64,000 nt of DNA, from contig JAZANL010000025.1 in NCBI GenBank assembly GCA_036251765.1, forward strand, positions 667 to 64,666, in the 5' to 3' direction. The DNA comes from Thermoplasmatota archaeon. Lineage in GTDB: Archaea > Thermoplasmatota > Poseidoniia > Poseidoniales > Thalassarchaeaceae. Numbering within the stretch: position 1 is the stretch's first letter; each line of letters opens with the position of its first letter. The notes beneath the pieces were generated by a model. It was not told where the DNA came from and did not search any database. It was given only the letters and a program-made list of their open reading frames with translations. A program made the translations under genes and the position numbers. Positions 7,221 through 28,749 of the stretch are shown piece after piece.

Positions 7221-10034
7221 CTATGTTCGTGACTCTTCTATCTGTCTCGCAAGGAAGCTGACAACGTCCAGAATCTCGAAGTCGTGACGAGGGTCTCCCT
7301 CGAACTTCAAGCATTCGAAGTGAGCTACACACTTGGGGCAGGAGGTAAGCATGATGTCTGCACCGGTGGCCCTCACTTCGTCGAACCTCTGGACTCTGAG
7401 TGCCCTGCTGTTCTCATTGCATGACATCATGCTTGATACTCCGCAGCAGAGGGCATCTTCTCCAGTGTGCTCCATCTCAACTAGATTGACTCCATCTACA
7501 GAGCCAACGAGGTCACGTGGCTCATCGTAGATGTTCATCTGCCTGCCTAGGCGACATGGGTCGTGATACGTCACGGTCACCTCGTCGTCCGTCTTCAGTT
7601 CCATGTCAAATCCATTCTCGATTAGGAACTCTGTAGTGTGCATGACCTTCATGTCGTCTAACTCGTAGTCTAGTGCGAATGTCCTGAAGCACTCCGCGCA
7701 AGATGTTACTAGGGTCTCGATTCCGCTCTCGCCCAACTTCTTCTGGTTGTACGACTTGAGCTTCTCGAAGACTTCGGTCATTCCCTGCCACTTCTGATCG
7801 TGTCCACAGCACTTCAGGAAGTCCCTACCAAGGTACGTTACTTCCTCGCCCATTTCCTCGAAGATAGTGAATGCGGAAGTAGTGGCATCCCCAAGATCCA
7901 TGCTTCCCTTATTCACATGGCTGAACACCATTTCTTGGTCAATGTAGTCGACGCAGCCAGGGTAGTATCCAATGCTGGAGTCAAGCGGATAGTCCTCAAC
8001 GGGAATGAATGCATCATCAGCATCTTCCTCTGCCTCTGCGGCTAGAACGGCCTGAAGGACAGTGTGTGGAATCTCGGTAGCAGGCGGACCTCCGACAACG
8101 AGGTTTCTCCTGATGTCGATATATGAGTCATAATCAACAAGCTGTGGGCATGCGTTAGTGCACGCTGTACAGGTCAAGCAGGAGTAAAGTGGGACTCCGT
8201 CGTCTTCGTTGTTCCATGTGTTGTATATGATGTTCAGCTTGTCACCAGCGTTGAACAGCCTTACCGGGCACGCATCATCACAAAGGTCGCAGCCATAGCA
8301 CTTGTTCATCTCCCACTCGTAGCCCCTAGCCATGCTCCTTAGCATAACGAAGACAAGTGCTCCCACGCCCAGGCATGGGATGAACATGGAGTAGATTAGC
8401 TTAGCATCCAGGCTCTTCGGATTCTTCTCGTAAGTCGGATTGGTGATTGACATCTCGGACAACTCCTCGTCACTGAGGCCAACTTCGGAACGGATTACAG
8501 CCGTACCATCCTCGGCGAGTAGAAGTGGTTGATACGCGACTGCAGAGAAGTCGGAAATCATCGTGACGCTTTCGTTGACCCCTTCTGAAGTGGTAGTGAA
8601 GGTTATGGTGTATGAAAATCCAGAGTCTAGGTATATTGTCCCGGAGTCGCAGGATGCCCCCTCATTCATCCATAGCGTCTCGCCAGCTTCATCGGTAAGC
8701 ACGAGACTCTGCGTGTGCAAACCAGCCCCGCGAACTGTGGTTCTGAAGTTACAACCTACGTCGGTCGGCACGCTCGCGACTCCCAAGTTTTCTACTTCGA
8801 ACTGAATTGACTCTGTGATTTCGATAACGGATCCGTCTTGCGCTCCTTCGTATATTATCTCGTTAGCACCTATGTTCCTGGAAGTTTGAGAATCGGCATG
8901 GCCGTTGGCTCCGCTGAAGTCGATAATCTTGCTTCTTGTAGGCTGGAATATCCCCCAGTTAACCCAATGCTTAGCCGGAATTACGCACCATTCGCTATGT
9001 TCAGTTCCCTCTTCCATCGAGTCCCAAGCAGAAAGTGAACTCGTTTGCTCGTAAGGCAGGCAATCATCCTCCCATTCCTCCCAAACGGGAACCTCACCTG
9101 CATGGATTAGCGTATCTCCTGGCTGGCCTCTTATGCCGTCTAACTCCTCTATCTTGGCATCGTATTGGTACTCCCAGAACCCCATAGTGCCCAATCCTCG
9201 CTGATTCCAGAATCCGTTCTCGTACACAGGCCATGTTACTGTGCACAAAAGTACTGTAGCAACCAAAGACCCAACTGCCACCTGTCTTCCCAATACTGGA
9301 GTTAGTCTGGATCCCAGGGGGCCAATCAGGAATTTCCTCACCGAGAAGTAAAGAACAGTGAAAATGAAAACCCCCGTGAGTATCCATGGAATTGCATTGA
9401 ACACTTCCGCGGTCCATGGCGATTGTGTGCCGCAATTGAAACCGCCATGGGCGCTAGACCAACAATAGTCGGTCCTATTTTGAGCATACATTTCCAGGAA
9501 GATGTTTATTGAGAACACGGAGATGAACCAGACGTGAGCGAGATATACTGCCCCAGCCGTCGCAAACCAGGGGTCCTCAACCCCCCTCTTCTCCCTTTTT
9601 CCAATGATGAATGGGGGTAGTGCTAGTATTCCCACTGGTAGTCCGGTGATCATTGCACCCCAGACTCCAGCATTCCAGGAAACAATCGGTTGCCCGAAGA
9701 ACTCACCTATGGGGCCAGCGGGTATGTCGAATTGAGGTAGGTATTCGCCCCACCTCAGATAACCGTAGGAGAACAAAACATACCAATCTGGAAAGACGAA
9801 TCCGGCCTGGGCATATGGGTCTGCTGCATTGTGCAGTGGGGGCGGTATGATCCACGAGTAGAATGCGATCACCATGACAATGGCTGCGAAGATGATTGTG
9901 TCTCTGAGGACTTCAGTGGGCCAGAAAGCATGCCCTGTGAACACCCTCTTCCGTTCTTCTTCTGCTCCCAGCAACTGCTCCTTCTCATCGATGTAGGTAT
10001 CAGCAATCCTCCCAAATCTCTCTATCATGCCCAT
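7221..10034 (-). CDS. Fusion protein of three parts: cytochrome b subunit-IV-like N-domain (Qo 'PDWY' motif), large extracytoplasmic domain, and C-terminal HdrD/GlpC-like 2x[4Fe-4S] + CCG-domain module
   Basis: 937 aa. N-terminus has 'PDWYVLFSYGYLRW' (PEWY-type Qo motif) and ~6 TM helices. Central ~300-aa Thr/Ser/Gly-rich soluble domain, then one TM. C-terminal 'CYGCDLCDDACPV' and 'CLTCTACTNACP' iron-sulfur motifs. Two CCG-type cysteine motifs ('KCCGHD', 'LCCGVS'). Confidence 0.75.
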   Translation of the reverse strand: MGMIERFGRIADTYIDEKEQLLGAEEERKRVFTGHAFWPTEVLRDTIIFAAIVMVIAFYSWIIPPPLHNAADPYAQAGFVFPDWYVLFSYGYLRWGEYLPQFDIPAGPIGEFFGQPIVSWNAGVWGAMITGLPVGILALPPFIIGKREKRGVEDPWFATAGAVYLAHVWFISVFSINIFLEMYAQNRTDYCWSSAHGGFNCGTQSPWTAEVFNAIPWILTGVFIFTVLYFSVRKFLIGPLGSRLTPVLGRQVAVGSLVATVLLCTVTWPVYENGFWNQRGLGTMGFWEYQYDAKIEELDGIRGQPGDTLIHAGEVPVWEEWEDDCLPYEQTSSLSAWDSMEEGTEHSEWCVIPAKHWVNWGIFQPTRSKIIDFSGANGHADSQTSRNIGANEIIYEGAQDGSVIEITESIQFEVENLGVASVPTDVGCNFRTTVRGAGLHTQSLVLTDEAGETLWMNEGASCDSGTIYLDSGFSYTITFTTTSEGVNESVTMISDFSAVAYQPLLLAEDGTAVIRSEVGLSDEELSEMSITNPTYEKNPKSLDAKLIYSMFIPCLGVGALVFVMLRSMARGYEWEMNKCYGCDLCDDACPVRLFNAGDKLNIIYNTWNNEDDGVPLYSCLTCTACTNACPQLVDYDSYIDIRRNLVVGGPPATEIPHTVLQAVLAAEAEEDADDAFIPVEDYPLDSSIGYYPGCVDYIDQEMVFSHVNKGSMDLGDATTSAFTIFEEMGEEVTYLGRDFLKCCGHDQKWQGMTEVFEKLKSYNQKKLGESGIETLVTSCAECFRTFALDYELDDMKVMHTTEFLIENGFDMELKTDDEVTVTYHDPCRLGRQMNIYDEPRDLVGSVDGVNLVEMEHTGEDALCCGVSSMMSCNENSRALRVQRFDEVRATGADIMLTSCPKCVAHFECLKFEGDPRHDFEILDVVSFLARQIEESRT

Positions 10035-10043
10035 CTTATCACC

Positions 10044-10916
10044 TCAGTGCGGCTCCGCAATTCCCTGAACCCAGACGATGAAAAGATGCGCCAATATGAG
10101 AACAGTAACAATTAGCGGTAATACGAAGACATGGAGGAAATACATCCGGACCACTGTCTGCCCTGTTAGGGTCGTCCCCCCGAACATCGCATTAGCGACC
10201 CACTCCCCAACAAGTGGTGTGGCCATTGCCATGTTTATGCCAATCGTAGCCGCACCGAAGGCTAGACTGTCCCATGGAAGTAGATAGCCTGAGTAACCGA
10301 AGAAAATGGAGAAGAACATCAGAGCGACCCCGATTAACCAGTTTAGCTCCCTGGGGTTCCTGTATGCCCCAGTGAAGTAAACTCGGCACATATGGAGGAA
10401 GACCGCAGCCACGAAGAAGTGTGTACCCCAGTGATGGATTGATCTGATGATGTATCCGAAAGGCAACTCCAACATGATGAACTCCATTGACGCATAGGCA
10501 GGGGTCGGATCAGAATTCAGATCCCCTCCCGGTACGTAGTAGAAGCCTAGAATTGTGCCTGTGATCACTAGGATGATGAAAGCGATGAAAGATATCCCGC
10601 CCAAGCAGTATAGGGGATACCAGTACCAGATTATCCTGAGTTTGTATTTCTCGGCATGAGTGAGCGGCATCTGCCTGTGCATGCTGTAGTAAGAGTCCCT
10701 GCTCATTCCCCAGTAATCCTGGATTCTGAATCTTGTGTCCAACCAGGAGAAGGCCCAGAGGAACAACTTCTCTGCGAGACCCATGCTTCCAGCATTCGTC
10801 TCCACTGCCCTAAGTATGTCCTTTCGAGGCATGTCGTCTCGCTCCCTCCTTAGGGTGAATGCGAAAATAACGACAACAACCGCGATGAAAATCCACAAGA
10901 ACCAGAATTGTATCAT
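10044..10916 (-). CDS. Cytochrome b (b6-like N-terminal haem-binding part of a split cytochrome b)
   Basis: 290 aa, polytopic. Conserved His pairs in TM helices ('HHWGTHFFVAAVFLHMCRVYFTGAYR'). Sits immediately upstream of the subunit-IV-like fusion gene. Confidence 0.8.
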   Translation of the reverse strand: MIQFWFLWIFIAVVVVIFAFTLRRERDDMPRKDILRAVETNAGSMGLAEKLFLWAFSWLDTRFRIQDYWGMSRDSYYSMHRQMPLTHAEKYKLRIIWYWYPLYCLGGISFIAFIILVITGTILGFYYVPGGDLNSDPTPAYASMEFIMLELPFGYIIRSIHHWGTHFFVAAVFLHMCRVYFTGAYRNPRELNWLIGVALMFFSIFFGYSGYLLPWDSLAFGAATIGINMAMATPLVGEWVANAMFGGTTLTGQTVVRMYFLHVFVLPLIVTVLILAHLFIVWVQGIAEPH

Positions 10917-10924
10917 TTTTTCAC

Positions 10925-11797
10925 CTAACCGCAGAATGTGTACCAGTCCATGAAGTCTGGAAGGGCCTCTATGGTGCCCCCATTAACAGTGAACGGTATT
11001 AGGGGCATCCCATAAGGTGCAGGGCCACCGGTCTTCTTCACTCCGATGAAATCGAACTCTTGCCCATTTGATCTATTTCTGGCTGTGTTCTTTTCTATCA
11101 CCGTGTGGTCGTACCTACTAGAGTGGCAAATGCAGAACGACTTGTTTCCACTTGAATCGGTTCCGCCGGGCAACCAGCTATCGGCCGTGAAGTCATTGTT
11201 GACTAATTGCCAGCCTGGTATGCAACACAGGTGGGGGCATCTAGCAAAAACGATAATCATGTTATTGTGGATATTAAGTGACGCATATTCCTCCTTTTCC
11301 TCAATCTCGAAACCGGATCCGACATAAGCCCCTCCGGCAGTGTAACCATCCATTAGCTGGAACCGGGGAGTGTCTGCTTCCAATGGTTTGTTCTTGTTCT
11401 CCTCGTGAGGGACATAGGTTGCGATAATCGGCAATCCAGACCATAGGCCGGCAGCCCCTACCATTCCTGTTGTTGAATTTGCGGATTCGTCGATGAACGC
11501 TTGCATGGTCATGGGTTGCTTGTCCATGTTACCATACCAAACATCGGATCCTTTTGGGACATAGAATTTGATCGATGAGTCAGAGCCACCGCCTTCAGCC
11601 TGCCCCATTAGGAATGAGGCAAAACCCACGCCACCCAGTGCGGCTGTTGTAATTAGTCCAGCAGCGGTATTGAATGACAGCCTCATGAACTCCCTCCTGT
11701 CGATGACCCCACTCTTCTCGTGGTGACTCACATTTTGTGTTTCGATCGGACGTAATTTGAACTTCCTCGCCATGGTCAGACCTCGTATTTCTTCCAA
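10925..11797 (-). CDS. Rieske [2Fe-2S] iron-sulfur protein with Tat signal
   Basis: Twin-arginine-type N-terminus 'RREFMRLSF...'. Rieske boxes 'CPHLCC' and 'CICHSSRYD'. Confidence 0.8.
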   Translation of the reverse strand: MEEIRGLTMARKFKLRPIETQNVSHHEKSGVIDRREFMRLSFNTAAGLITTAALGGVGFASFLMGQAEGGGSDSSIKFYVPKGSDVWYGNMDKQPMTMQAFIDESANSTTGMVGAAGLWSGLPIIATYVPHEENKNKPLEADTPRFQLMDGYTAGGAYVGSGFEIEEKEEYASLNIHNNMIIVFARCPHLCCIPGWQLVNNDFTADSWLPGGTDSSGNKSFCICHSSRYDHTVIEKNTARNRSNGQEFDFIGVKKTGGPAPYGMPLIPFTVNGGTIEALPDFMDWYTFCG

Positions 11798-12225
11798 GAA
11801 TTAGTGTCATGGCTAGTGATGTACTTGTTCCTTCTGTGTTTAACAATCACCACATCCGGAAGTACGTACTTCAAGTACACTATCCCCATGATAATCAGGG
11901 TAAGTAGAGTCATTGCCAGATTGAATGAAAGTAACTGCTGGTCCCAATTGTTGTACAAACCGTAAGCCAGTGCGCCAGCCCAATAGAGTGTCCACATTAG
12001 TCCCCATAGGCCGACTAGGATGATTAGCCAAGAGTCACCAGAAGGTGCCAGACTGGCTCTTACTATGGTGCCCGGCTTGACCTCGTTGAAGACACCGTGA
12101 TCAACCGCCGCTGCGAAGGACTCCTCCGTCAGCGTGGCCTCTTCAAGAGCCACTCTGGCGTCCTCGACGCTAACTTCTCCCGACTTAACTTGTCGAAGTA
12201 GCCTCATCACCACATCGTCTTTCAT
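11776..12225 (-). CDS. Small membrane protein (2 TM) of the Rieske/cyt b operon
   Basis: 149 aa. Hydrophilic N-domain followed by two TM helices. Overlaps neighbours by 4-22 nt. Confidence 0.4.
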   Translation of the reverse strand: MKDDVVMRLLRQVKSGEVSVEDARVALEEATLTEESFAAAVDHGVFNEVKPGTIVRASLAPSGDSWLIILVGLWGLMWTLYWAGALAYGLYNNWDQQLLSFNLAMTLLTLIIMGIVYLKYVLPDVVIVKHRRNKYITSHDTNSWKKYEV

Positions 12226-13025
12226 AGTTGATCGCCTCTCCTTAGATGCTTTATTCTTAGCCTCAGTAGATTACTTCTCCCTTCGTAATGCCTGGAGAAA
12301 CCGTATCTCAGGAAAAGCCCACAGAATAGGATTACCAGCATCACGGCCCCAAATCCAAGAAGCCCAAGCCAGTGGGCCAAGAGTTTGGCACCCATGTGAT
12401 GGAGATCAGTGTGACTCTCAACCGGTGCCGGAGGGGTGATGTCCCCATTTCCAGAGAAAACCGTCCTAGTTCTTCCGTTGTCCTCACCTTCGTCGAAGCT
12501 AGTAGTTAGGCGATTCCATCTATCTAGGCTTGATGGCGCCATGTCCCCATTTACCGAATTTCCAGCGACCATGAAGTCTACAGTCCCAGAACCCTCCGCG
12601 GGGCTCACCCACCGGAACAACCATGATCTGTCAGAGGTCCTTGAACCGGCATCTGTGTGAGTAAGTGTGGTCGGGTCATCTTCCCAGTTCTGGACAAGAC
12701 CTTCTGATCCTTCCGAAGGCTCTAGTGAACCAACACTAACTTTCATCGAGAAACCTCCCGTGTAGGACTCAAGATCGGCCTCAGGTCCGCCGATGAGTTG
12801 TAACTTCATCTCATATGCTGTTTCTGGGGCATAATGGAAAGGAACCCCGTCAAGAATCACGGTAACCGAATTGTCCGGCTCCTCAGCATGGCATGTGCAT
12901 CCTGCAAGGGCGACATCGCCCTGTCCATTTGCATTACCCCCCACTCCTGTGTGCAAAGCCTGGCCAGAACCCGCAACAAAAACAGTCACCAAAATAAGTA
13001 CGATTGTTTTCTGTCGCGATGCCAT
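12222..13025 (-). CDS. Secreted, C-terminally membrane-anchored protein; first gene of the Rieske/cyt b operon (possible redox partner)
   Basis: 267 aa. N-terminal signal/TM 'TIVLILVTVFVAGSG'. C-terminal TM 'LLGFGAVMLVILFCGLFL'. Cys pair 'GCTCH' near the N-terminus. Confidence 0.4.
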   Translation of the reverse strand: MASRQKTIVLILVTVFVAGSGQALHTGVGGNANGQGDVALAGCTCHAEEPDNSVTVILDGVPFHYAPETAYEMKLQLIGGPEADLESYTGGFSMKVSVGSLEPSEGSEGLVQNWEDDPTTLTHTDAGSRTSDRSWLFRWVSPAEGSGTVDFMVAGNSVNGDMAPSSLDRWNRLTTSFDEGEDNGRTRTVFSGNGDITPPAPVESHTDLHHMGAKLLAHWLGLLGFGAVMLVILFCGLFLRYGFSRHYEGRSNLLRLRIKHLRRGDQL

Positions 13026-13089
13026 CTTACTTCACCTAGCATCTGCTAATGCCGCTTCCAAAAAAAAGGGGGATATTAACGTTCCACCC

Positions 13090-13106
13090 CGGCCCCTACG
13101 GGGCCG
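13090..13106. promoter_or_regulatory. GC hairpin (CGGCCCC-TAC-GGGGCCG) plus A8/T8 run in the divergent intergenic region between the bc-type operon and the TPR/FtsZ-like pair
   Basis: Perfect 7-bp inverted repeat at 13090-13106. A8 (T8 on the minus strand) at 13062-13069, ~35-42 nt upstream of the minus-strand operon ATG. Confidence 0.25.
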
Positions 13107-13158
13107 AACAAAATTGTCGCTAGAAAAGAACCAAACACCCCTGTTAGGGACGAGTATT

Positions 13159-13464
13159 ATGGGAGCCCCGCGGTGGAAGAACATTTACGATCTCACTCCC
13201 GACCAAATAGAAAAATTGGAGGAAGCCGAGGACAAAATGGAATCCATGGAGATAAACGAATCCGAGAGGATTCTATTGGCTCTTCTGGAGGATGACGAGA
13301 ATTGCATTCCCGTTTTGAATATCCTAGGGCACCTACATGGCCGGTACCTTTCTGATTTTGAAGCATCGATCGAGTACTACGACAGAGTTCTGGAACTTGA
13401 GCCTGATAACGCCTGGGCAAGAGACGAAAGGAGGAGATACAGGCGTTATGTTACATATGATTAG
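13159..13464 (+). CDS. Small TPR-like helical protein, upstream partner of the FtsZ-like gene
   Basis: ~102 aa from the internal Met. TPR-like 'ASIEYYDRVLELEPDNAWAR'. The 5' part of the long ORF overlaps the opposite-strand operon and was discarded. Confidence 0.4.
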   Translation: MGAPRWKNIYDLTPDQIEKLEEAEDKMESMEINESERILLALLEDDENCIPVLNILGHLHGRYLSDFEASIEYYDRVLELEPDNAWARDERRRYRRYVTYD

Positions 13465-13499
13465 AACAGAATAATCTAGTCAGTCGCACGCGGGGCCTC

Positions 13500-14405
13500 A
13501 TGGAGCAAGGCTCTATTCTGATAGTAGGGGTTGGCGGGATAGGTTGCCAGTGGTCCGGAGGGGCCCACGATAAATGCCAAGAGCTAGCAGATCTGCTAAT
13601 GATAGATGCCGATGAATCCTCATTTTCTTCCGAACACGAGGCCCATTGCCTGCACTTAGACGCCAGCGGTAGTGCGAGAGGCGCAGCGGCACTGCCAAAC
13701 CTTGCTGCTCACCGCCTCAACGAGGGCATCGGAAACATCTCCGCGCTATTGGAGAAATCAGAATTAGTAATATTGTTGGCGGCATTAGGCGGTGGGACCG
13801 GTTCGGGGGCAACTGCAGAGATTGCAGCAAAATCACGTGAGTCCGGTAGTTTGGTGATCAGCATAGTTGGAGTGCCATTCGCAGAGCAACCACTAAGATG
13901 CGCAATAGCAGAGAAAGCGCTCCCCGCAATTGAGAGAAATTCAGATTTATGCATTCGAGTGAGTCTCGAGAGGCTCGCTTGGCAGGCCAGGCACCGGGAC
14001 TCGGATTGGAAGCTAGGATCGGAATGGATTGGCGAGCTGATCGAGGGACTCGTGACGACTCTGGCAAGAGTCGGTAAGATGAACCTCGATTTGATGGACC
14101 TGCGGACAGTCGTTGGTAGGCCAGGAAATGCTACTCTAATCGTTGGAAACGGTACTACGGACGATCCTGATGGGGTTGTTAGGATGGCGAGAAACTCCCC
14201 CCTGTCTGAGATTGCTGTAGACGGCGCAAAGGGTTGCCTAATCCAAGTGGAGGGGGGACCAGACATGACTCTCGGCCACCTAAATAGGGTCTCTGAGGCA
14301 TTCGTCTCCACTCTAGATTATGACTGTCAGGTAATACTAGGCGCTAGAGCTAGTGAAGATATGGCAGGACGGCTTCGTCTTGTTGCTGTAGTTAGTGGCC
14401 TCTAG
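13500..14405 (+). CDS. Divergent FtsZ/tubulin-superfamily GTPase
   Basis: 301 aa. T1-like 'ILIVGVGGIGCQW', tubulin signature 'GGGTGSGA', T7-like 'NLDLMDLRTVVG', then '...ATLIVGNG'. Confidence 0.7.
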   Translation: MEQGSILIVGVGGIGCQWSGGAHDKCQELADLLMIDADESSFSSEHEAHCLHLDASGSARGAAALPNLAAHRLNEGIGNISALLEKSELVILLAALGGGTGSGATAEIAAKSRESGSLVISIVGVPFAEQPLRCAIAEKALPAIERNSDLCIRVSLERLAWQARHRDSDWKLGSEWIGELIEGLVTTLARVGKMNLDLMDLRTVVGRPGNATLIVGNGTTDDPDGVVRMARNSPLSEIAVDGAKGCLIQVEGGPDMTLGHLNRVSEAFVSTLDYDCQVILGARASEDMAGRLRLVAVVSGL

Positions 14406-15652
14406 TCCAGCAATTCGACTACTTCATCTTCCACGTTTGTCTGCGAATGAGTTAAATTTTCTACCATCGGCATTTGCTTCGTTTCACCCGCTAATTCTTC
14501 CGGCGTGGATTGATCCACATCTAATACAACCTCACTTTCCGGCCTCCCAGTCCAAGACAAACACATCGGCAAAATCCCCATCATCACCATTGCGGTAATT
14601 GCATGCCCAATTGCCGTTGTTGTAAGTAGACTACCTTCGGATAGTGCAGTTAGTGATGATATGCTGCCTGCATAAATGAATCCGAAACCAATTCCCCAGA
14701 AGACCGCTGATTGTCCTTGAAAGATCTTCCAACCGCCCTTTTCCCCTCTTTTTGCCATTGACCACACTGCTAGAATGATAGAAATTGACATCAATATGCC
14801 TTCTTCAATAAGCATACCTCCCGAACTCTTATCGGCCCAAATCGGGCTTCTTCTCCATGCACCTAGGAGATGCCAACAAGATGTTAGGAAAATGAAGAAA
14901 AATACCTTGTCTAAGGCAACTCCGTCAACCCCTTCCCTGCTTCTAACACTCTTGGTGTAACGATCCAATAATATGCCTAATAAAGCGATTATTAGTAAGA
15001 ATAAAATCCAGTAAATATTCTCAGTAAAACCCGAGTTCCTAGGATCTTCCGCTCCGTATCCAAACCACCAAACCAAGGGAATGAGAACAATAACTGTCAC
15101 CATTGACATACCGAATGAAAAAATCCCCCCAGCTCTACTCTTTCGAGGTGATTGCTGAGCCTTCCTTGAATACACAACCCAACCATAGGCCAGCGAAACC
15201 CCCTGGAAGACAGACATGGCGATGAACATCAGTGCCAGAAATATTCTAGCATTGCCCAACTGCTCGTTACCTAAAACTAAGTTTGAGAGTAGCCAGATAG
15301 TTCCCGCAACTGTAATGATTGGAATTAGCCGGGAAAACCCTCCAAGCCAGTAATTCCGGTTTAGAACTCCATCATCGCTTTTTTGGACTGTAAAAATCCA
15401 TTTTCCCATTCTGCTCGGTGATAGCAATGCAGCAAAGATGTATGATACAGATAGAGAAAGAAAAATGATGCTTCCTTGCATCTCTGAACCAAATAAGTCC
15501 ACCTTCATTGCAATATAGAGAAAACCGGAAAATGCGCCCAATGATAGCAAGTGCGGGAGAGTCGATGGGCTCGAGAAAATTTTGAGCATATTTTCAGGTT
15601 CATGGTCGATTGCCATCCCCGCATCTCTCATATCCTTCCGTGAACCCACCAT
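14402..15652 (-). CDS. Polytopic integral membrane protein (10+ TM), unknown function
   Basis: 416 aa, highly hydrophobic. Convergent with, and overlapping, the FtsZ-like gene stop. Confidence 0.5.
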   Translation of the reverse strand: MVGSRKDMRDAGMAIDHEPENMLKIFSSPSTLPHLLSLGAFSGFLYIAMKVDLFGSEMQGSIIFLSLSVSYIFAALLSPSRMGKWIFTVQKSDDGVLNRNYWLGGFSRLIPIITVAGTIWLLSNLVLGNEQLGNARIFLALMFIAMSVFQGVSLAYGWVVYSRKAQQSPRKSRAGGIFSFGMSMVTVIVLIPLVWWFGYGAEDPRNSGFTENIYWILFLLIIALLGILLDRYTKSVRSREGVDGVALDKVFFFIFLTSCWHLLGAWRRSPIWADKSSGGMLIEEGILMSISIILAVWSMAKRGEKGGWKIFQGQSAVFWGIGFGFIYAGSISSLTALSEGSLLTTTAIGHAITAMVMMGILPMCLSWTGRPESEVVLDVDQSTPEELAGETKQMPMVENLTHSQTNVEDEVVELLD

Positions 15653-15680: not shown

Positions 15681-15998
15681 ATGCCGAAGCCGAAAAAGGC
15701 TGCGAGGGGAAAACACCGATGGATTGGATTCCAGATCGAGAATACTCATTCGAGGGCTGAGCTGAAACGCTCATTGAAAGACGAATTGGACGGTTTTGAA
15801 TGGCGTTTGTTCGATATCTTGGAAGCGGGTGAAAAAACCCTGGCTATTGTTAAAACTCCTCTTGGAAACTTCAAACAAGTTATCTCACAAATTAATAATT
15901 CAGGGTCAATGCAAACTCTAACCAGTTCTGGCAAGATCAGATTGGTCAGAAAACGTCTAGAATCAATGATTGGGGAGTATCCAAAAGATGCCATCTAA
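15681..15998 (+). CDS. rnp2: RNase P protein component Pop5 (Rnp2)
   Basis: 105 aa. 'KHRWIGFQIE' matches the conserved RHRYIAFE N-terminal motif of archaeal Pop5. Size is typical. Confidence 0.6.
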   Translation: MPKPKKAARGKHRWIGFQIENTHSRAELKRSLKDELDGFEWRLFDILEAGEKTLAIVKTPLGNFKQVISQINNSGSMQTLTSSGKIRLVRKRLESMIGEYPKDAI

Positions 15999-17495
15999 GT
16001 CCTCAAAAACGGCCCTTTCCTCTATTCCAACCAATTCCAACTCACCAGACTTATTCATTCCAGTAGGCCTATACATCTCTCCATCAAGGGTTGTCAGAAC
16101 GCCTCTCGAGAGGAATCTGGAAAGTGCTTTCCACGAGGATTGTGAGAGTTTAGCAGAATCCGTAGCTGCAATCATTTTCTTGTTCTCGAAGGTTGAGGAT
16201 ATTGCTCTGTCGACTCTATGAAAAATCTCCAAAAAATCAAGTCCACCAATCGTTTCTTCCCATCCAGAGGCTACAACTCCGCCTTCAGCAAAACCACTCC
16301 TGTTGGCACCAACCCCCACTCTGATGGAGTTATTGTTGGACGATTCAACAAGAACACCCCCGATCTTCACTCCATTTTCATCGACTATGTCATTCGGCCA
16401 TTTCATATCCGCACCCAATACTTCAGAAACGATCGCACCTATGCTAGTCTGAATAAGGCCTGGCGGGATTTTTTCGAGCAATTCAACTTCAAGGGACCAT
16501 GTCGCAAACAACCCCCCCTCCTCGGAAACCCAATCTGAGCCCCTCCTTCCCCTGCCTTTGGTCTGCTTCTTTGATAGGATTCTCTGCCACCCCCCTAGCG
16601 GCAGACTCTCAGCCTCGTCCATGGTCGAGGTGCACGAATCAAGAATTGTCGGAGCCTTTCCAGAACCGGTGCGCCAGAAACCGATAACTTCCAACTTCTC
16701 GTCTCCAAACCTTTCCATCCTCAGTGTTCGCGAAGACCATCCATTTTGCTCCCAGTCGAGAACTCTGCTGCTTCCCACTGGGTCCGTCCTCATCACCAAT
16801 ATTGCCATTATATTTTCAGGCAAATCGCTTCTAGAATTTTCCAATGATTTCAGCAGGACTCCCCCCCATCCGCCCTTCGGAATATCGGCCAACGCCGCCT
16901 CTTCGATCTTCTCTAGTACTCCGAAGTTTTCTTCGTCCTCTTCTAGGTAGGGGAGATTCCAAACAACCAACTCAGTATCTTCGGGGATAGGAAAATCACT
17001 CTCAAAATCTGCTTCGATAATACTGGCCCTATCCGATAGGCCATTCGCCTCTAGGTTCCCCCTAGTACAGGCTACAGCGAATGGATTCACATCGCAAGCG
17101 GTTACTTCCCACCCTAATGCCGAGAGAACCATTGTAACCAGGCCGGACCCGCATCCTATTTCCATGGCCTTGGAATCCGATTTTGCCGATAGTTTGGATA
17201 AGACATCACAAAGCATCAACGTGTCTTCTTTGGGGGGGTAAACGGTAGGTGGCACAATTACATCCCACTCCCCAACGCCTTCAATGCGAACTCTACGATC
17301 TTGCATTGTATTTTTCACTCGTATTCGGGACAAAATTGTTCTGCCCGCGACCATTTCTATCTCAACAACATTTATGTCGCCGACCAACGAAGGATGGATA
17401 GTACCGGCATCCTCCGGTACCTCTCGCAGATTTGCGAGAGCGTTGCTGTGCGCAAGCCTTTTGAACACCCCTAGGGTCGGAGGATAGCCCAGCAT
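15963..17495 (-). CDS. Fusion of a class I SAM-dependent methyltransferase (HemK/PrmC-like) with biotin-protein ligase BirA
   Basis: N-half has 'EIGCGSGLVTMVL' (motif I) and 'VVWNLPY' (NPPY-like motif IV). C-half has 'KGRGRRGSDWVSEEGGLFATW' (BirA GRGRRG motif). Confidence 0.65.
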   Translation of the reverse strand: MLGYPPTLGVFKRLAHSNALANLREVPEDAGTIHPSLVGDINVVEIEMVAGRTILSRIRVKNTMQDRRVRIEGVGEWDVIVPPTVYPPKEDTLMLCDVLSKLSAKSDSKAMEIGCGSGLVTMVLSALGWEVTACDVNPFAVACTRGNLEANGLSDRASIIEADFESDFPIPEDTELVVWNLPYLEEDEENFGVLEKIEEAALADIPKGGWGGVLLKSLENSRSDLPENIMAILVMRTDPVGSSRVLDWEQNGWSSRTLRMERFGDEKLEVIGFWRTGSGKAPTILDSCTSTMDEAESLPLGGWQRILSKKQTKGRGRRGSDWVSEEGGLFATWSLEVELLEKIPPGLIQTSIGAIVSEVLGADMKWPNDIVDENGVKIGGVLVESSNNNSIRVGVGANRSGFAEGGVVASGWEETIGGLDFLEIFHRVDRAISSTFENKKMIAATDSAKLSQSSWKALSRFLSRGVLTTLDGEMYRPTGMNKSGELELVGIEERAVFEDLDGIFWILPNH

Positions 17496-26929: not shown

Positions 26930-27889
26930 TTGGGTTTTCTTCAAAGTCACACCCTTCGCCCTAGATCTATGGAAGAGGCGTTGCGGGATCTTCTCAGAAT
27001 AAAAGCTGTTAACCTCCGCACCCAGAAAGTGGGCTCTGTAGCGCCCGGCTTCACCTTCCTGGGCGTCGCCAATGCAATCCCAGATTTGGAAATACACTCG
27101 AATGAGGTTTTTATTTGGCATGCCAAAGCCGGAATATTGCCAATCACTGAGAGTGAGATAATCAGGTTTGGAATGGATGCACCCAATGGCCTCAACATAA
27201 TCCTGAGTGAAAGGCCCGTTCATTCGGAATGCCACTCGGTAGCTACTTTCAATTTCAGAATTCTTGAACCCGAGGAAGTTTCCATGTGGGTCGGAAAGGC
27301 CGTTCTATCAGGAGATTTGATTGCAACCGCTAAGGATGAAGTAGAGGACCAAATGGAACGATTAGAACATGAAAAAAGAACCCAGAAACTGTTAGTTCTG
27401 AACCCAGTCATTGAGATCAAGGAATGGTCTTCACAACGTGGAATGGATGGTTTCTCTTCAACCCCCATTCTCCTAAGGGCACGACTGTGGTCGGTATCGG
27501 GGGAATTGAAAGGGCCCGATGGTGAAAGAGAATCCGGTGAATGGGTGATTCTTGAGGATCCGTGGTCAAAAACCGTGTCTCTAATGAATGATATTCACAA
27601 TCTCCGCCAGGCACCAATTCTGAGGACTATTGAACCACAGAATTCCAATTGGCTTACTCCTGATAGGATAAATCAAGAATTGTCCAAAGCCATCGAGGAA
27701 AGGAGGAGAGGGGGCTCAGGAGAGATCAGTGATTCAGGAACCGTCCGTAGCATGCTTCTACAGAAATGGTCTTTGGACTCCGAAAGAGCCAGAATTGCCG
27801 ATTGCAAGATAATGATTCCTGGATGGCTAATACACTTTGAATCCGAAAAGATTCTGCACGGACGTAACGGTCGCCTATACGATTACTAA
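26930..27889 (+). CDS. Hypothetical protein (319 aa) occupying the position where nusA/rps12/rps7 normally follow rpl30e
   Basis: Long ORF with ordinary composition. No recognisable motif. Start uncertain (internal Met at ~26969 is possible). Confidence 0.4.
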   Translation: MGFLQSHTLRPRSMEEALRDLLRIKAVNLRTQKVGSVAPGFTFLGVANAIPDLEIHSNEVFIWHAKAGILPITESEIIRFGMDAPNGLNIILSERPVHSECHSVATFNFRILEPEEVSMWVGKAVLSGDLIATAKDEVEDQMERLEHEKRTQKLLVLNPVIEIKEWSSQRGMDGFSSTPILLRARLWSVSGELKGPDGERESGEWVILEDPWSKTVSLMNDIHNLRQAPILRTIEPQNSNWLTPDRINQELSKAIEERRRGGSGEISDSGTVRSMLLQKWSLDSERARIADCKIMIPGWLIHFESEKILHGRNGRLYDY

Positions 27890-28749
27890 TTCCTCTGTAG
27901 CAGCATCATATCTTCATCCGAGAGGGTTTGACCCTCCATAAGCCTAGACATTAAGTCAGTAACTTCAACCCTCTCCGAATCCTGCTCTTTCTTTGTTCCT
28001 GATAACTTCAGAATATCCTGCATAGAATGAATACACCGGAGGGAGATGATGTATTTGTTGTGTAAATCATCAGCTTCACCCTTAGTTGCAGTTAGTCCTA
28101 GATGTTCTGAATTTGCCATCCCCCTGAGCCTATCAACTTCATTTGAAAGCTCCATCATCAGGGAGTGGGCCTCCTCTGACTTCTCGGAAGCGTCGGTTAC
28201 AGCATCATGTGCTTTCTGCTGCCTCTTCTCAGCTTGCTTCACTTCCTTCAGAACAGAAGAGCTACTCGCTTCCTCTTCCTTTTTGAGCAATTTAAATTCA
28301 GTCTGCAACCTCTTCATTGTCGCATAGAAGTCCCTCTCCTTCTTTGGGCTAATTTGACCTGTCTGATGCCGCCACTCCAGCTTATTCATCTGCTCGCGAA
28401 TTTTTCGGGATCCTGGGCCCTTCCTCTTTTTGCCTTTGTCTTGATCATTATTTTCAACCGAGCTCCTCAATTTAGCCCTAACTTCCTTTAATTCATTTGT
28501 CTTCTCGAGCCTAATCTTCCTAAGTTCTGCGACCCTACTATTTGCCTCATTCCGCAATGTCTTCTGCTTCTGCACTTCGGTGATCAATTGCTTCACTTGA
28601 CTATTTATCTCATTCCTCTTGTCTAATTGACCTCTGACTTTCACGTTGAGTTGGTCACGTCTTGTTTTGAAATCTGTCAGCTTATCACTAACCAACTGAG
28701 TTTTCGTTTCGAAAACTTGACTAAAATTCGACTGATTGAGTTCCAACAA
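27886..28749 (-). CDS. Coiled-coil protein, paralogue 3 of a tandem triplet
   Basis: 287 aa, K/E/R/Q-rich heptad-like sequence. Overlaps the upstream paralogue's 3' region. Confidence 0.5.
   Translation of the reverse strand: MLELNQSNFSQVFETKTQLVSDKLTDFKTRRDQLNVKVRGQLDKRNEINSQVKQLITEVQKQKTLRNEANSRVAELRKIRLEKTNELKEVRAKLRSSVENNDQDKGKKRKGPGSRKIREQMNKLEWRHQTGQISPKKERDFYATMKRLQTEFKLLKKEEEASSSSVLKEVKQAEKRQQKAHDAVTDASEKSEEAHSLMMELSNEVDRLRGMANSEHLGLTATKGEADDLHNKYIISLRCIHSMQDILKLSGTKKEQDSERVEVTDLMSRLMEGQTLSDEDMMLLQRN

What the first reader, a model, noticed from the sequence alone, without database searches (positions are those of the whole stretch)
13159..14405. Divergent FtsZ/tubulin-superfamily GTPase paired with a small TPR-like protein
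The 301-aa protein has the tubulin signature GGGTGSG, a T7-like NLDLMDL loop and the terminal GNG block. Its T1 loop (GVGGIGCQW instead of GVGGGGNNA) and its compact size depart from canonical FtsZ and CetZ, and it has no C-terminal linker or tail. A ~100-aa TPR-like gene lies 35 nt upstream, suggesting a two-component unit. This may be a non-canonical tubulin-family cytoskeletal or segregation system.
Basis: partly seen in the sequence, partly recalled or inferred. Interest (0 to 1): 0.65.

Follow-up and report, generated by a model that had tools for sequence, protein, structure and literature searches.

The report
Tail-less divergent FtsZ with TPR partner
Marine Group II archaea (Poseidoniales) carry, besides an ordinary FtsZ cell-division gene, a stripped-down and fast-evolved second FtsZ that always sits behind a tiny TPR protein; it is probably their remodelled FtsZ2, and nobody has described how it works.

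Summary
Window 13500-14405(+) encodes a 301-aa FtsZ-family protein: Pfam Tubulin plus FtsZ_C, and an AlphaFold model matching FtsZ crystal structures at TM about 0.9. It consists of the globular core only. A 101-aa mini-TPR gene (13159-13464) lies 35 nt upstream.

The window comes from a Marine Group II archaeon (Poseidoniales, MGIIb). The TPR-FtsZ pair is conserved in every one of 79 species-level loci that have upstream DNA. The family motif occurs in 362 species genomes. Both genes are under strong purifying selection (dN/dS 0.02-0.06).

It is not the lineage's only FtsZ. Poseidoniales also have a canonical ~376-390-aa FtsZ1-like protein with tails, encoded elsewhere behind radA.

The compact family sits on a very long branch. 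Its best but unstable affinity is to FtsZ2-type sequences, including the second FtsZ of sister order MGIII. I read it as a derived FtsZ2.

Phosphate loops and the catalytic T7 aspartates are invariant. Guanine and ribose contacts are replaced family-wide (N165 to L/M, D/N186 to S/A, E138 to Q, N24 lost, three new invariant Trp).

Most likely it is a polymerising division NTPase whose missing tail is functionally replaced by the TPR adaptor.

Verdict: new variant of a known kind; moderate interest.

The parts
13500..14405 (+). Compact, tail-less FtsZ-family gene (301 aa): N-terminal nucleotide-binding domain, helix H7, T7 loop and FtsZ_C domain only
   Evidence: Matches Pfam Tubulin and FtsZ_C. 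PDB phmmer best hit is FtsZ at 3e-28. The AF2 model has pLDDT 85 and pTM 0.85. The Foldseek PDB top 50 are all FtsZ, with TM 0.82-0.91 in 49 of them. Family residue table. dN/dS is 0.02-0.03.
13159..13464 (+). Mini-TPR partner gene (101 aa): conserved N-terminal W-x-N-x-Y-x-L motif, two TPR hairpins, and an Arg/Tyr-rich capping helix (EPDNAWARDERRRYxRY)
   Evidence: Pfam TPR hits are weak in the window copy. All 9 orthologues hit TPR, best E 9e-9. The AF2 single-sequence model has pLDDT 79 and five helices. Foldseek best matches are CTPR2/3 designs and Fis1, TM about 0.6. The gene is present directly upstream in 79 of 79 loci with upstream DNA. dN/dS is 0.04-0.06.
13465..13499 (+). 35-nt spacer between the two genes, with no terminator-like site on the + strand; the pair is probably co-transcribed
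   Evidence: Sequence; terminator scan. Both flanking genes are on the opposite strand, so the pair is an isolated same-strand unit. Co-transcription is inferred, not shown.
13026..13158 (.). Divergent intergenic region between the 267-aa membrane/secreted protein gene (-) and the TPR gene (+); presumed promoter region of the pair
   Evidence: Sequence. An A-rich run and an ATATTAA stretch are present. No archaeal promoter tool is available, so this is inference only.
14402..15652 (-). Convergent 416-aa multi-pass membrane protein with no Pfam match, whose stop overlaps the FtsZ stop by 4 nt. It is a neighbour that is conserved in part of the order but dispensable, so probably not part of the unit.
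   Evidence: ORF and Pfam results. The gene is present in MGIIa and some MGIIb loci. It is absent in Thalassarchaeum-type loci (L036, L038-L041, L044-L062 and others), where Pop5 follows the FtsZ gene directly.

Best explanation
The pair is a two-gene operon of Poseidoniales (Marine Group II archaea).

**The 301-aa protein.** It is a descendant of archaeal FtsZ2. It evolved very fast on the stem of the order, lost its N-terminal extension, its C-terminal linker and its anchor-binding tail, and was then frozen under strong purifying selection.

**Proposed mechanism.**
- It still binds a nucleoside triphosphate through the T1 and T4 glycine loops.
- It assembles head-to-tail, so that the invariant T7 loop (N195, D197, D200) of one subunit activates hydrolysis in the next, as in every FtsZ.
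- It acts in cell division together with the canonical FtsZ1-like protein and SepF that the lineage also encodes.
- Because it has no tail, it cannot use the usual tail-SepF route to the membrane. The co-encoded mini-TPR protein is proposed to be its obligate adaptor. It would bind either the FtsZ core or a short peptide of another ring component (for example the FtsZ1 tail), and so tie the filament into the ring or to the membrane.

**Shown:** fold, motifs, lineage distribution, strict gene pairing, selection, existence of a canonical FtsZ in the lineage.

**Inferred:** FtsZ2 ancestry, polymerisation, role in division, adaptor role of the TPR protein, co-transcription.
For: **Identity and fold.**

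**Catalytic and phosphate machinery** (83 family members).
- G10, G12, G13, G15 and the T4 glycines (GGGxGxG) are essentially invariant (one A at G13 and one at G101 among 83).
- P126, F127 and R133 are invariant.
- N195, D197 and D200 are invariant.

**Functional constraint.** dN/dS is 0.02-0.03 for the FtsZ and 0.04-0.06 for the partner.

**Lineage-wide pairing.** The TPR gene is directly upstream in 79 of 79 species loci from MGIIa and MGIIb, down to 46% FtsZ identity. The only other neighbour that might belong, the membrane protein, is lost in many genera.

**A canonical FtsZ exists in the lineage.**
- EHR75921.1 has an N-terminal extension and a ...RHIEFVN tail.
- More than 120 clusters match it, those that carry a source name being called 'cell division protein FtsZ' of Poseidoniales or Poseidoniaceae.
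- Its context is radA-ftsZ.
- It scores higher with FtsZ1 references than with FtsZ2-type ones.
- Pende et al. 2021, Supplementary Data 1, lists 1-3 FtsZ (two or more in four of five) in the Poseidoniales genomes, and one SepF in the four UBA MAGs (none in the Iverson genome).

**FtsZ2 affinity.**
- The family HMM scores highest on P0143 and P0137. Both have an RHH (cdrS-like) gene upstream, the hallmark of ftsZ2 (PMC7439475, PMC8406309).
- In NJ bootstrapping the sister group contains these FtsZ2-type references in 58 of 100 replicates, against FtsZ1 in 4 of 100.
- In the published ML tree (PMC9871819, supplementary file 43) the compact clade is sister to the second FtsZ of MGIII, with UFBoot 70. 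In file 41 it lies next to that clade.
- The MGIII second FtsZ (OIR21729.1) still has an N-terminal extension and a tail, so the losses are specific to Poseidoniales.

**TPR domains as adaptors.** The partner's closest folds include Fis1 and Hsp90-peptide-binding TPR modules. TPR domains are classical short-peptide and adaptor binders (established knowledge).
Against: - Placement is unstable. A third published tree puts the clade with Nanopusillus (support 58) and another with a Methanocella long branch (support 83). The stem branch is 1.0-1.9 substitutions per site, so long-branch attraction cannot be excluded.
- The family is about equally distant from all canonical FtsZs.
- The FtsZ2 hallmark cdrS is not upstream. 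An RHH reading of the partner's N-terminus was rejected (hhalign probability 1.4%).
- Residues that recognise guanine and ribose in FtsZ are replaced, so GTP binding is not assured.
- I did not show the canonical FtsZ and the compact one on the same contig or MAG. Attempts found no shared record. Co-occurrence rests on the literature table and on each being lineage-wide.
- There is no experimental data, no expression data and no complex prediction for the TPR-FtsZ interaction.
Confidence: 0.5

Rival explanations
1. An additional, lineage-specific FtsZ paralogue with a non-division cytoskeletal job (cell shape, envelope or organelle-like positioning, by analogy with CetZ). It would use the TPR protein as its own dedicated partner, while division is run by FtsZ1/SepF alone.
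For: The family is extremely divergent and equidistant from all FtsZs. It has no SepF-binding tail and no cdrS upstream. FtsZ1-only division exists in some methanogens (bioRxiv 10.1101/2020.06.04.133736).
Against: Most Poseidoniales genomes in Pende's table have two, not three, FtsZ hits. That leaves no separate FtsZ2. The C-terminal domain is FtsZ_C, not CetZ or tubulin-like. The best affinities are FtsZ2-type. Archaea without a rigid wall generally keep FtsZ2 for constriction.
Confidence: 0.25
2. A non-polymerising or non-GTP-binding FtsZ-like regulator (pseudo-GTPase). It would cap or modulate FtsZ1 filaments, with the TPR protein as co-regulator.
For: Family-wide replacement of base and ribose contacts, in E. 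coli numbering: N24 becomes variable, E138 becomes Q with a one-residue deletion, N165 becomes L/M, D/N186 becomes S/A, and T3 G71 becomes A.
Against: Both T7 aspartates, N207, the T4 signature, the T1 glycines, D45 and R142 are invariant in 83 species. That pattern makes sense only if nucleotide is bound and hydrolysed across a subunit interface. The aromatic base-stacking position is kept as Trp. dN/dS is about 0.02.
Confidence: 0.12
3. It is the main or only division FtsZ of this organism, simply mis-scored because Marine Group II proteins evolve fast.
For: JGI annotates family members as 'cell division protein FtsZ'. I could not show a canonical ftsZ in this very genome; none is present in the 64-kb window.
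Against: A canonical FtsZ is abundant across Poseidoniales and far less divergent. Published trees contain both a short-branch canonical clade with MGIIa and MGIIb members and the long-branch compact clade. The Iverson MG-II genome has two FtsZ entries, one of them the canonical EHR75921.1.
Confidence: 0.05
4. A TubZ/TubR-like DNA-segregation module of a plasmid, virus or integrated element.
For: Only the superficial pattern of a small gene followed by a tubulin-family gene.
Against: TubZ matches at E 0.31, against FtsZ at 1e-28. No TubZ appears in the Foldseek top 50. The locus lies between the cytochrome b/Rieske cluster and the Pop5 and rpoH-B-A genes, with order-wide synteny. There are no iterons. 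The small gene is TPR, not a winged-helix or RHH DNA binder.
Confidence: 0.01

Closest known systems
Archaeal FtsZ2 (e.g. Haloferax volcanii HVO_0581, in the cdrS-ftsZ2 operon)
   Same: - It has the FtsZ fold with an FtsZ_C domain and an intact T7 loop.
- It is the second FtsZ of a genome that also has an FtsZ1-like protein and SepF.
- It is preceded by a small co-oriented gene.
- Its best, though weak, sequence and tree affinity is to FtsZ2-type proteins, including the FtsZ2 of sister order MGIII.
   Different: - It has no N-terminal extension, no linker and no C-terminal tail.
- The upstream gene encodes a mini-TPR protein, not the RHH regulator CdrS.
- The stem branch is 1-1.9 substitutions per site.
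- The base and ribose pocket is remodelled.
Canonical FtsZ / archaeal FtsZ1 (M. jannaschii 1FSZ; Poseidoniales EHR75921.1)
   Same: The core architecture and secondary-structure order are the same, with TM about 0.9. It keeps the GGGTG(S/T)G signature, the PF...R motif of T5 and the NxDxxD motif of T7.
   Different: - Identity is only 25-31%.
- It scores 130.9 bits against a cutoff of 295 on TIGR00065.
- It scores about 100 bits against FtsZ1 references, where bacterial and archaeal FtsZs score 200-400 among themselves.
- It lacks tails.
- Its genomic context differs: canonical ftsZ follows radA.
CetZ (archaeal tubulin-like cell-shape proteins)
   Same: Both are archaeal, non-canonical tubulin-superfamily paralogues that coexist with FtsZ.
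   Different: No CetZ chain appears among the PDB sequence hits at E up to 1 or in the Foldseek top 50. The C-terminal domain is FtsZ_C. T7 is of the FtsZ type.
Fis1-type and consensus two- or three-repeat TPR adaptors
   Same: The partner is a ~100-aa protein of two TPR hairpins plus a capping helix. Fis1 is a small TPR adaptor that recruits a fission GTPase, which is a functional analogy only.
   Different: There is no transmembrane anchor. There is no detectable sequence relationship beyond the generic TPR pattern. It has a family-specific N-terminal W-x-N-x-Y-x-L motif and an Arg/Tyr-rich C-terminal helix.
Divergent second FtsZ copies in other lineages (CPR and Verrucomicrobia FtsZ, Korarchaeota and Bathyarchaeia divergent FtsZs; Santana-Molina 2023)
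   Same: These are also long-branch, phylogenetically unstable FtsZ derivatives restricted to one lineage.
   Different: This one is order-wide, tail-less, coupled to a TPR gene, and has a specific set of invariant pocket substitutions. The paper's main text does not discuss it, although six members are in its data files.

Membership tests
FtsZ family (Pfam Tubulin PF00091 + FtsZ_C PF12327) | Tubulin/FtsZ GTPase domain with the G-G-G-T-G-[ST]-G signature | tested here: met
   PF00091 scores 62.1 bits against a cutoff of 33. GGGxGxG glycines are conserved in 82-83 of 83 members.
FtsZ family (Pfam Tubulin PF00091 + FtsZ_C PF12327) | FtsZ-type C-terminal domain | tested here: met
   PF12327 scores 59.3 bits against a cutoff of 27 and covers profile positions 1-94 of 95. 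The Foldseek top 50 are all FtsZ, and 49 of them have TM 0.82-0.91.
FtsZ family (Pfam Tubulin PF00091 + FtsZ_C PF12327) | T7 synergy loop N-x-D-x-x-D that completes the active site of the neighbouring subunit | tested here: met
   N195, D197 and D200 are invariant in 83 members.
FtsZ equivalog (NCBIfam TIGR00065, 'cell division protein FtsZ') | Score above the curated equivalog cutoff | tested here: not met
   The score is 130.9 bits against a cutoff of 295.2. NCBI names family members 'hypothetical protein'.
FtsZ equivalog (NCBIfam TIGR00065, 'cell division protein FtsZ') | Disordered C-terminal linker plus a conserved terminal peptide that binds membrane anchors (SepF or FtsA) | tested here: not met
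   The protein ends at VVSGL. All members have 0-5 residues after the core. The Poseidoniales canonical FtsZ and MGIII FtsZ2 both have tails.
FtsZ equivalog (NCBIfam TIGR00065, 'cell division protein FtsZ') | Guanine and ribose contact residues (E. coli N24, E138, N165, D/N186) | tested here: not met
   N24 is variable, E138 is Q, N165 is L/M and D/N186 is S/A/P/G. All of these hold family-wide, against 140-173 of 175 conserved in canonical FtsZ.
FtsZ equivalog (NCBIfam TIGR00065, 'cell division protein FtsZ') | GTP-dependent polymerisation and mid-cell ring formation | not testable with these tools
   Needs biochemistry and imaging. The organism is uncultured.
Archaeal FtsZ2 | Phylogenetic placement inside the FtsZ2 clade | tested here: inconclusive
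   In NJ bootstrapping the sister group includes FtsZ2-type references in 58 of 100 replicates and FtsZ1 in 4 of 100. Published ML trees place the clade sister to MGIII FtsZ2 (support 70), with Methanocella (83) or with Nanopusillus (58).
Archaeal FtsZ2 | cdrS (RHH) gene immediately upstream in an operon | tested here: not met
   The upstream gene is TPR. RHH similarity has hhalign probability 1.4%. The closest canonical relatives, P0137 and P0143, do have an RHH gene upstream.
Archaeal FtsZ2 | Coexists with one FtsZ1 and SepF, with no other FtsZ2 in the genome | tested here: inconclusive
   At lineage level this holds. Same-genome co-occurrence and absence of another FtsZ2 were not shown directly.
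CetZ | CetZ or tubulin-like C-terminal domain and closer similarity to CetZ than to FtsZ | tested here: not met
   No CetZ appears among the PDB sequence hits at E up to 1 or among the top structural matches.
TubZ/TubR partition systems | TubZ-type protein with an adjacent DNA-binding TubR and centromeric iterons on a mobile replicon | tested here: not met
   TubZ matches at E 0.31. There are no iterons. The locus is conserved core-chromosome synteny.
FtsZ-like FtsZl-1 / Tubulin_2 families (Makarova & Koonin 2010) | Tubulin_2 Pfam domain | tested here: not met
   Only PF00091 and PF12327 are reported at E up to 0.1.
TPR repeat proteins (the 101-aa partner) | Tandem 34-residue helix-turn-helix repeats | tested here: met
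   Nine of 9 orthologues match TPR_8, TPR_1, TPR_2 and TPR_19, with a best E of 9.4e-9. The model has five helices. The closest folds are CTPR2/3 and Fis1.

The most novel reading that the evidence does not exclude
The compact protein is a tubulin-superfamily NTPase whose base pocket has been rebuilt. It has lost the guanine-specific Asn and Asp contacts and gained three invariant tryptophans and a Gln, so its nucleotide preference or exchange behaviour would differ from every characterised FtsZ or tubulin. It would depend on an obligate mini-TPR co-factor that replaces the universal C-terminal tail-anchor mechanism. That would be a new way of building and tethering a Z-ring component, in the most abundant planktonic archaea of the surface ocean.
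Probability: 0.2. Interest if true: 0.75.

Novelty: new variant of a known kind. Interest (0 to 1): 0.5.

Why it matters
Poseidoniales are among the most abundant archaea in the surface ocean, and none is in culture. Their cell biology is therefore known only from sequence.

Current models of FtsZ-based archaeal division rest on three elements:
- two tailed FtsZs;
- SepF binding a C-terminal peptide;
- the cdrS-ftsZ2 operon.

This lineage keeps FtsZ1 and SepF but has turned its presumed FtsZ2 into a bare core. The core has a remodelled nucleotide pocket and is welded genetically to a tiny TPR protein.

If the reading is right, it gives three things:
- a natural experiment on what the FtsZ tail is for;
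- a candidate new class of FtsZ adaptor;
- a small, soluble, easily expressed pair of proteins with which the ideas can be tested in vitro or in Haloferax.

If it is wrong and this is an extra paralogue, it is a new archaeal cytoskeletal family of unknown role.

Either way, automated annotation is currently inconsistent. NCBI calls family members 'hypothetical protein' and JGI calls them 'cell division protein FtsZ'.

Tried and rejected
1. **RHH reading of the partner.** Its N-terminus (W-x-N-x-Y-x-L, then helices with EAED and SE..I..A) looked by eye like the RHH proteins upstream of P0137 and P0143. hhalign gave probability 1.4% and no Pfam RHH hit even at E up to 10. Rejected.

2. **Finding the canonical Poseidoniales FtsZ by searching with the closest canonical hit (P0133).** The hits were other Thermoplasmatota and Woesearchaeota, with none named Poseidoniales among those that carried a name. 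The sequence was finally obtained from the supplementary alignments of PMC9871819.

3. **Direct same-contig or same-MAG co-occurrence of canonical and compact FtsZ.**
   - I compared record names and contig lengths from look-ups of P0496, P0468 (canonical) and P0569 (compact), and cluster accessions. No shared record was found.
   - EHR75994.1 could not be retrieved.

4. **Fetching the locus of MGIII FtsZ2 (OIR21729.1)** to see its upstream gene.

5. **AlphaFold of the TPR partner with an orthologue alignment.** The single-sequence model was used instead.

6. **Labelling FtsZ1 versus FtsZ2 by C-terminal tail motifs.** This does not discriminate.

7. **Six GCAs with a compact member in the Santana-Molina trees.** Each occurs only once there, so that data set cannot show co-occurrence.

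8. **Other division genes in the window.** No SepF, CdvB, Vps4 or second FtsZ is present in the 64 kb.

9. **Iterons or terminators around the pair.** None of note.
Full report
**1. What is in the sequence**

ORF 13500-14405(+) encodes 301 aa. It is preceded, after a 35-nt spacer, by ORF 13159-13464(+) of 101 aa. Both neighbours lie on the opposite strand: a 267-aa membrane or secreted protein at 12222-13025(-), and a 416-aa multi-pass membrane protein at 14402-15652(-). The two genes therefore form an isolated same-strand pair. No terminator-like site lies between them on the + strand.

The 301-aa protein:
- It matches Pfam Tubulin (E 1.1e-16) and FtsZ_C (E 4.6e-16).
- Its best solved relatives are FtsZs, led by M. 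jannaschii FtsZ1 (E 3e-28). TubZ and tubulin appear only at E 0.3-0.8, and no CetZ chain appears.
- An AlphaFold2 model built on a 47-sequence alignment is confident (pLDDT 85, pTM 0.85).
- The 50 best Foldseek matches in the PDB are all FtsZ, nearly all at TM 0.82-0.91 over the full length.
- The protein is the globular FtsZ core and nothing else. It starts five residues before strand S1 and stops at the last strand of the FtsZ_C domain.

**2. Whose genome, and how widespread**

More than 120 protein clusters at 81-94% identity, nearly all of exactly 301 aa, come from marine metagenomes. The few that carry an organism name are labelled Candidatus Poseidoniales, Thalassarchaeaceae or Euryarchaeota.

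An exhaustive HMMER search of 1.84 billion representatives shows a small, sharply bounded family. Four further 50%-identity clusters (48-39% identical, 299-310 aa) are followed by a drop to generic FtsZs at about 30% identity. Those that carry names are again Poseidoniales.

Scanning one genome per GTDB species with the family-specific T7 peptide [MI]NLDL[MAS]DLR found 362 loci encoding a relative. The best 80 are all Poseidoniales, from both MGIIb (Thalassarchaeaceae) and MGIIa (Poseidonia), apart from one evidently mis-binned contig. The closest are an uncultured Poseidoniales MAG (96%) and 'Marine Group II euryarchaeote MED-G35' (95%).

The rest of the window is ordinary archaeal core genome:
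- a cytochrome b/Rieske cluster;
- Pop5;
- rpoH-rpoB-rpoA;
- L30e, S3Ae and S19e;
- PAN;
- histidine-utilisation genes;
- methylmalonyl-CoA mutase.

It contains no second FtsZ, SepF or ESCRT gene (and the Pfam calls).

**3. The gene pair is a conserved unit**

In all 79 species-level loci that include upstream DNA, a homologue of the 101-aa protein lies directly upstream on the same strand, with E 1e-32 to 1e-64 against the window copy. The single locus without it begins inside the FtsZ gene.

The convergent membrane protein is absent in Thalassarchaeum-type genomes, where Pop5 follows directly. It is therefore not an obligatory part of the unit.

The partner is about 100 aa everywhere and highly conserved. 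Its features are:
- an N-terminal W-x-N-x-Y-x-L motif;
- two helical hairpins;
- a nearly invariant C-terminal EPDNAWARDERRRYxRY.

The TPR assignment rests on the following:
- The window copy is just below Pfam's TPR thresholds.
- All nine diverse orthologues tested hit TPR families, best E 9.4e-9, and six also hit Fis1_TPR_C.
- A single-sequence AlphaFold model (pLDDT 79) has five helices.
- Its best structural matches are two- and three-repeat consensus TPR designs, Fis1 and Hsp90-peptide-binding TPR modules. TM is about 0.6 and E-values are weak.

The body of the partner is very acidic (pI 4.2) and the last helix is basic.

Both genes are under strong purifying selection against the three nearest species: dN/dS is 0.02-0.03 for the FtsZ and 0.04-0.06 for the partner, at dS 0.7-1.2.

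**4. It is not the lineage's only FtsZ**

Supplementary Data 1 of Pende et al. 2021 (PMC8178401) lists FtsZ and SepF for five Poseidoniales genomes: one to three FtsZ entries each (two or more in four), plus one SepF in the four UBA MAGs. The Iverson MG-II genome has EHR75994.1 and EHR75921.1 and no SepF.

The supplementary alignments of Santana-Molina et al. 2023 (PMC9871819) give the sequence of EHR75921.1. It is a 389-aa FtsZ with an N-terminal extension, canonical T1 to T7 motifs and a C-terminal tail ending RHIEFVN.

Searching with it returned more than 120 clusters at 80% identity or above, about 376 aa long. Those that carry a source name are called 'cell division protein FtsZ', from Candidatus Poseidoniales, Poseidoniaceae, Poseidonia or unclassified Euryarchaeota. 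They are encoded directly downstream of radA, including on 2.0-2.1-Mb contigs. This protein scores higher with FtsZ1 references than with FtsZ2-type sequences.

I could not put the canonical and compact genes on one contig or MAG with the look-ups allowed. Same-genome co-occurrence therefore rests on the published table and on each gene being lineage-wide.

**5. Where the compact family belongs**

*Divergence.* It is far more divergent than FtsZs normally are.
- M. jannaschii FtsZ1 scores 200-400 bits against bacterial and archaeal FtsZs, but 86 bits against a family member.
- Mean corrected distance to any canonical FtsZ is 1.7-2.1, against 1.0 among canonical FtsZs.
- TIGR00065 gives 130.9 bits against a cutoff of 295.

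*Published trees.* Six family members (MBF93264.1, MBJ17416.1, MBJ28927.1, PXF22034.1, RAH16766.1, MBA88363.1) are already in the data files of Santana-Molina et al. In the three ML trees they form a clade on a stem of 1.0-1.9 substitutions per site. Its position changes between trees:
- sister to the second FtsZ of sister order MGIII (UFBoot 70), inside a Thermoplasmatota group;
- sister to a Methanocella long branch (83), next to that MGIII clade;
- sister to Nanopusillus (58).

The main text does not mention Poseidoniales.

*My own analyses.*
- In the NJ analysis the family is monophyletic in 100 of 100 replicates. Its sister group contains the FtsZ2-type references in 58, FtsZ1 in 4 and bacterial FtsZ in 10.
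- A family HMM scores best on P0143 and P0137. Both are preceded by a ribbon-helix-helix gene.
- That cdrS-ftsZ2 arrangement is the conserved hallmark of archaeal ftsZ2 (PMC7439475, PMC8406309).
- MGIII has both an FtsZ1 (OIR21645.1) and a tailed second FtsZ (OIR21729.1, ending ...LGSSVPMIN).

*Reading.* The most economical reading is that the compact protein is the Poseidoniales descendant of FtsZ2. It lost both extensions and diverged rapidly on the stem of the order. This is inference. Long-branch artefacts are not excluded, and the upstream gene is not cdrS (hhalign probability 1.4% for an RHH reading).

**6. The active site**

I aligned 83 family members and 175 canonical FtsZs. Numbering is that of E. 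coli, whose sequence I checked against the PDB.

Kept in (almost) all 83 family members:
- T1 glycines G17, G19, G20 and G22 (a single A at G20);
- T2 D45 (82 of 83);
- T3 G69 (82 of 83), and P74 in 72 of 83;
- the T4 glycines of GGGxGxG (a single A at the fifth position);
- T5 P134, F135 and R142;
- T7 N207, D209 and D212.

Changed, and fixed in the new state across the family:

| E. coli position | Canonical state | Family state |
|---|---|---|
| N24 | Asn in 165 of 175 | variable |
| A25 | - | Trp |
| N43 | - | Asp |
| G71 | - | Ala |
| E138 | - | Gln, with deletion of the following Gly |
| N165 | Asn in 172 of 175 | Leu or Met |
| F182 | - | Trp |
| D/N186 | Asp or Asn in 170 of 175 | Ser, Ala, Pro or Gly |
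| V188 | - | Trp |

From established FtsZ structures, N165 and the Asp or Asn at position 186 hydrogen-bond the guanine. E138 holds the ribose and F182 stacks on the base. The phosphate-binding and hydrolysis-activating machinery is therefore intact. The base and ribose pocket has been rebuilt around tryptophans.

An intact T7 loop under dN/dS of about 0.02 argues for a polymerising, hydrolysing enzyme rather than a dead pseudo-GTPase. Nucleotide preference cannot be assumed.

**7. Mechanism proposed**

- Shown: an FtsZ core with catalytic loops; no tails; an obligatory, co-oriented mini-TPR gene; strong constraint on both; a canonical FtsZ1-like protein and SepF in the lineage.
- Inferred: the compact protein forms head-to-tail filaments with T7-activated NTP hydrolysis and takes part in division, as FtsZ2 does in Haloferax.
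- Inferred: because it lacks the C-terminal peptide by which FtsZs are tethered (SepF in archaea; PMC8178401, PMC8187382), the TPR protein supplies the missing connection. It would bind either the FtsZ core or a short peptide of another ring component. Peptide binding is what small TPR modules typically do.

I put about 0.5 on this whole picture, about 0.65 on FtsZ2 ancestry, and above 0.95 on 'Poseidoniales-specific divergent FtsZ paired with a TPR protein'.

**8. Rivals**

- An extra paralogue with a non-division role (0.25).
- A non-polymerising regulator (0.12).
- The sole division FtsZ (0.05).
- A TubZ-like segregation module (0.01). The arguments against the last are FtsZ rather than TubZ similarity, core-chromosome synteny, no iterons and no DNA-binding partner.

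**9. Novelty and score**

The family is present in public databases and in two published data sets. To my knowledge of the searchable literature it has never been singled out:
- No paper combines FtsZ with Poseidoniales or Marine Group II in a relevant way.
- None of the twelve top-ranked archaeal-divisome papers returned by a search combining 'tetratricopeptide', FtsZ2, archaea and divisome contains the word tetratricopeptide.

It is a new variant of a known kind, not a new kind. The features a specialist would find notable are:
- complete loss of both tails in a presumed FtsZ2;
- order-wide coupling to a mini-TPR protein in place of cdrS;
- the coordinated replacement of base-contact residues.

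Interest: 0.5.

Noticed in passing
window 7221-11797 (-): A 937-aa fusion protein sits next to cytochrome b (10044-10916) and a Rieske-like protein (10925-11797). It combines a membrane N-terminal part, 4Fe-4S motifs and CCG (HdrD-like) domains. This looks like an unusual bc-type complex with a heterodisulfide-reductase-like module, and it is conserved in related contigs.
   Followed up: no
window 27886-28389(-), 29771-30595(-), 34497-35483(+): Three paralogues of the uncharacterised family DUF7121 are clustered within 8 kb, around a DtxR-type iron regulator and a CARDB protein.
   Followed up: no
window 37407-38303 (+): Ribosomal protein S3Ae carries a C-terminal SAP (DNA/RNA-binding) domain. 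It is 298 aa, against a 191-position Pfam S3Ae profile that ends at residue 198.
   Followed up: no
window 15963-17495 (-): A 510-aa protein in which a methyltransferase-like N-terminal part appears fused to a BirA/LplA-type ligase domain. It lies just downstream of Pop5 and overlaps its end. The Pfam hits come from the orthologue in L001 and are weak to faint.
   Followed up: no
P0126 (826 aa), P0129 (744 aa), P0132 (840 aa): These are single polypeptides containing two complete FtsZ cores in tandem. P0126 is from Candidatus Altiarchaeum hamiconexum; the origin of the other two was not looked up. They turned up among the best non-family hits.
   Followed up: partly
L046 (PAQG01000017.1); MAH41214.1 in PMC9871819 trees: Poseidoniales contigs are mis-binned into bacterial MAGs. 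A compact-FtsZ locus with full Poseidoniales synteny is labelled Acidimicrobiaceae. A canonical Poseidoniales FtsZ is labelled Alphaproteobacteria IN39.
   Followed up: partly
MGIIa orthologues: MBA88363.1, P0575/P0578/P0582 (337 aa) versus 303-306 aa: Gene callers often give MGIIa copies of the compact FtsZ a false upstream start, adding about 30 residues that overlap the end of the TPR gene. The conserved start is M-E/H-x-G/S-x-I/L-L-I.
   Followed up: partly
window 13159-13464; alignment A3/A4: The TPR partner has two family-specific elements outside the repeats. One is an N-terminal alternating motif, W6-x-N8-x-Y10-x-L12, which looks strand-like. The other is an almost invariant Arg/Tyr-rich last helix, AWARDERRRYxRY. 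Either could be the actual docking element.
   Followed up: partly
L088 5657-5998 and L089 415-651: The two canonical FtsZs closest to the compact family (P0137, P0143) are each preceded by a ribbon-helix-helix gene, the cdrS-ftsZ2 arrangement, in uncultured archaea of unknown affiliation. P0143 is an unusually long FtsZ (612 aa) with a 150-aa N-terminal extension.
   Followed up: partly
window 61859-63007 (+): A separate 382-aa multi-repeat TPR protein (TPR_2 E 3e-37) lies 47 kb from the pair. I did not test whether it is related to the mini-TPR partner.
   Followed up: no
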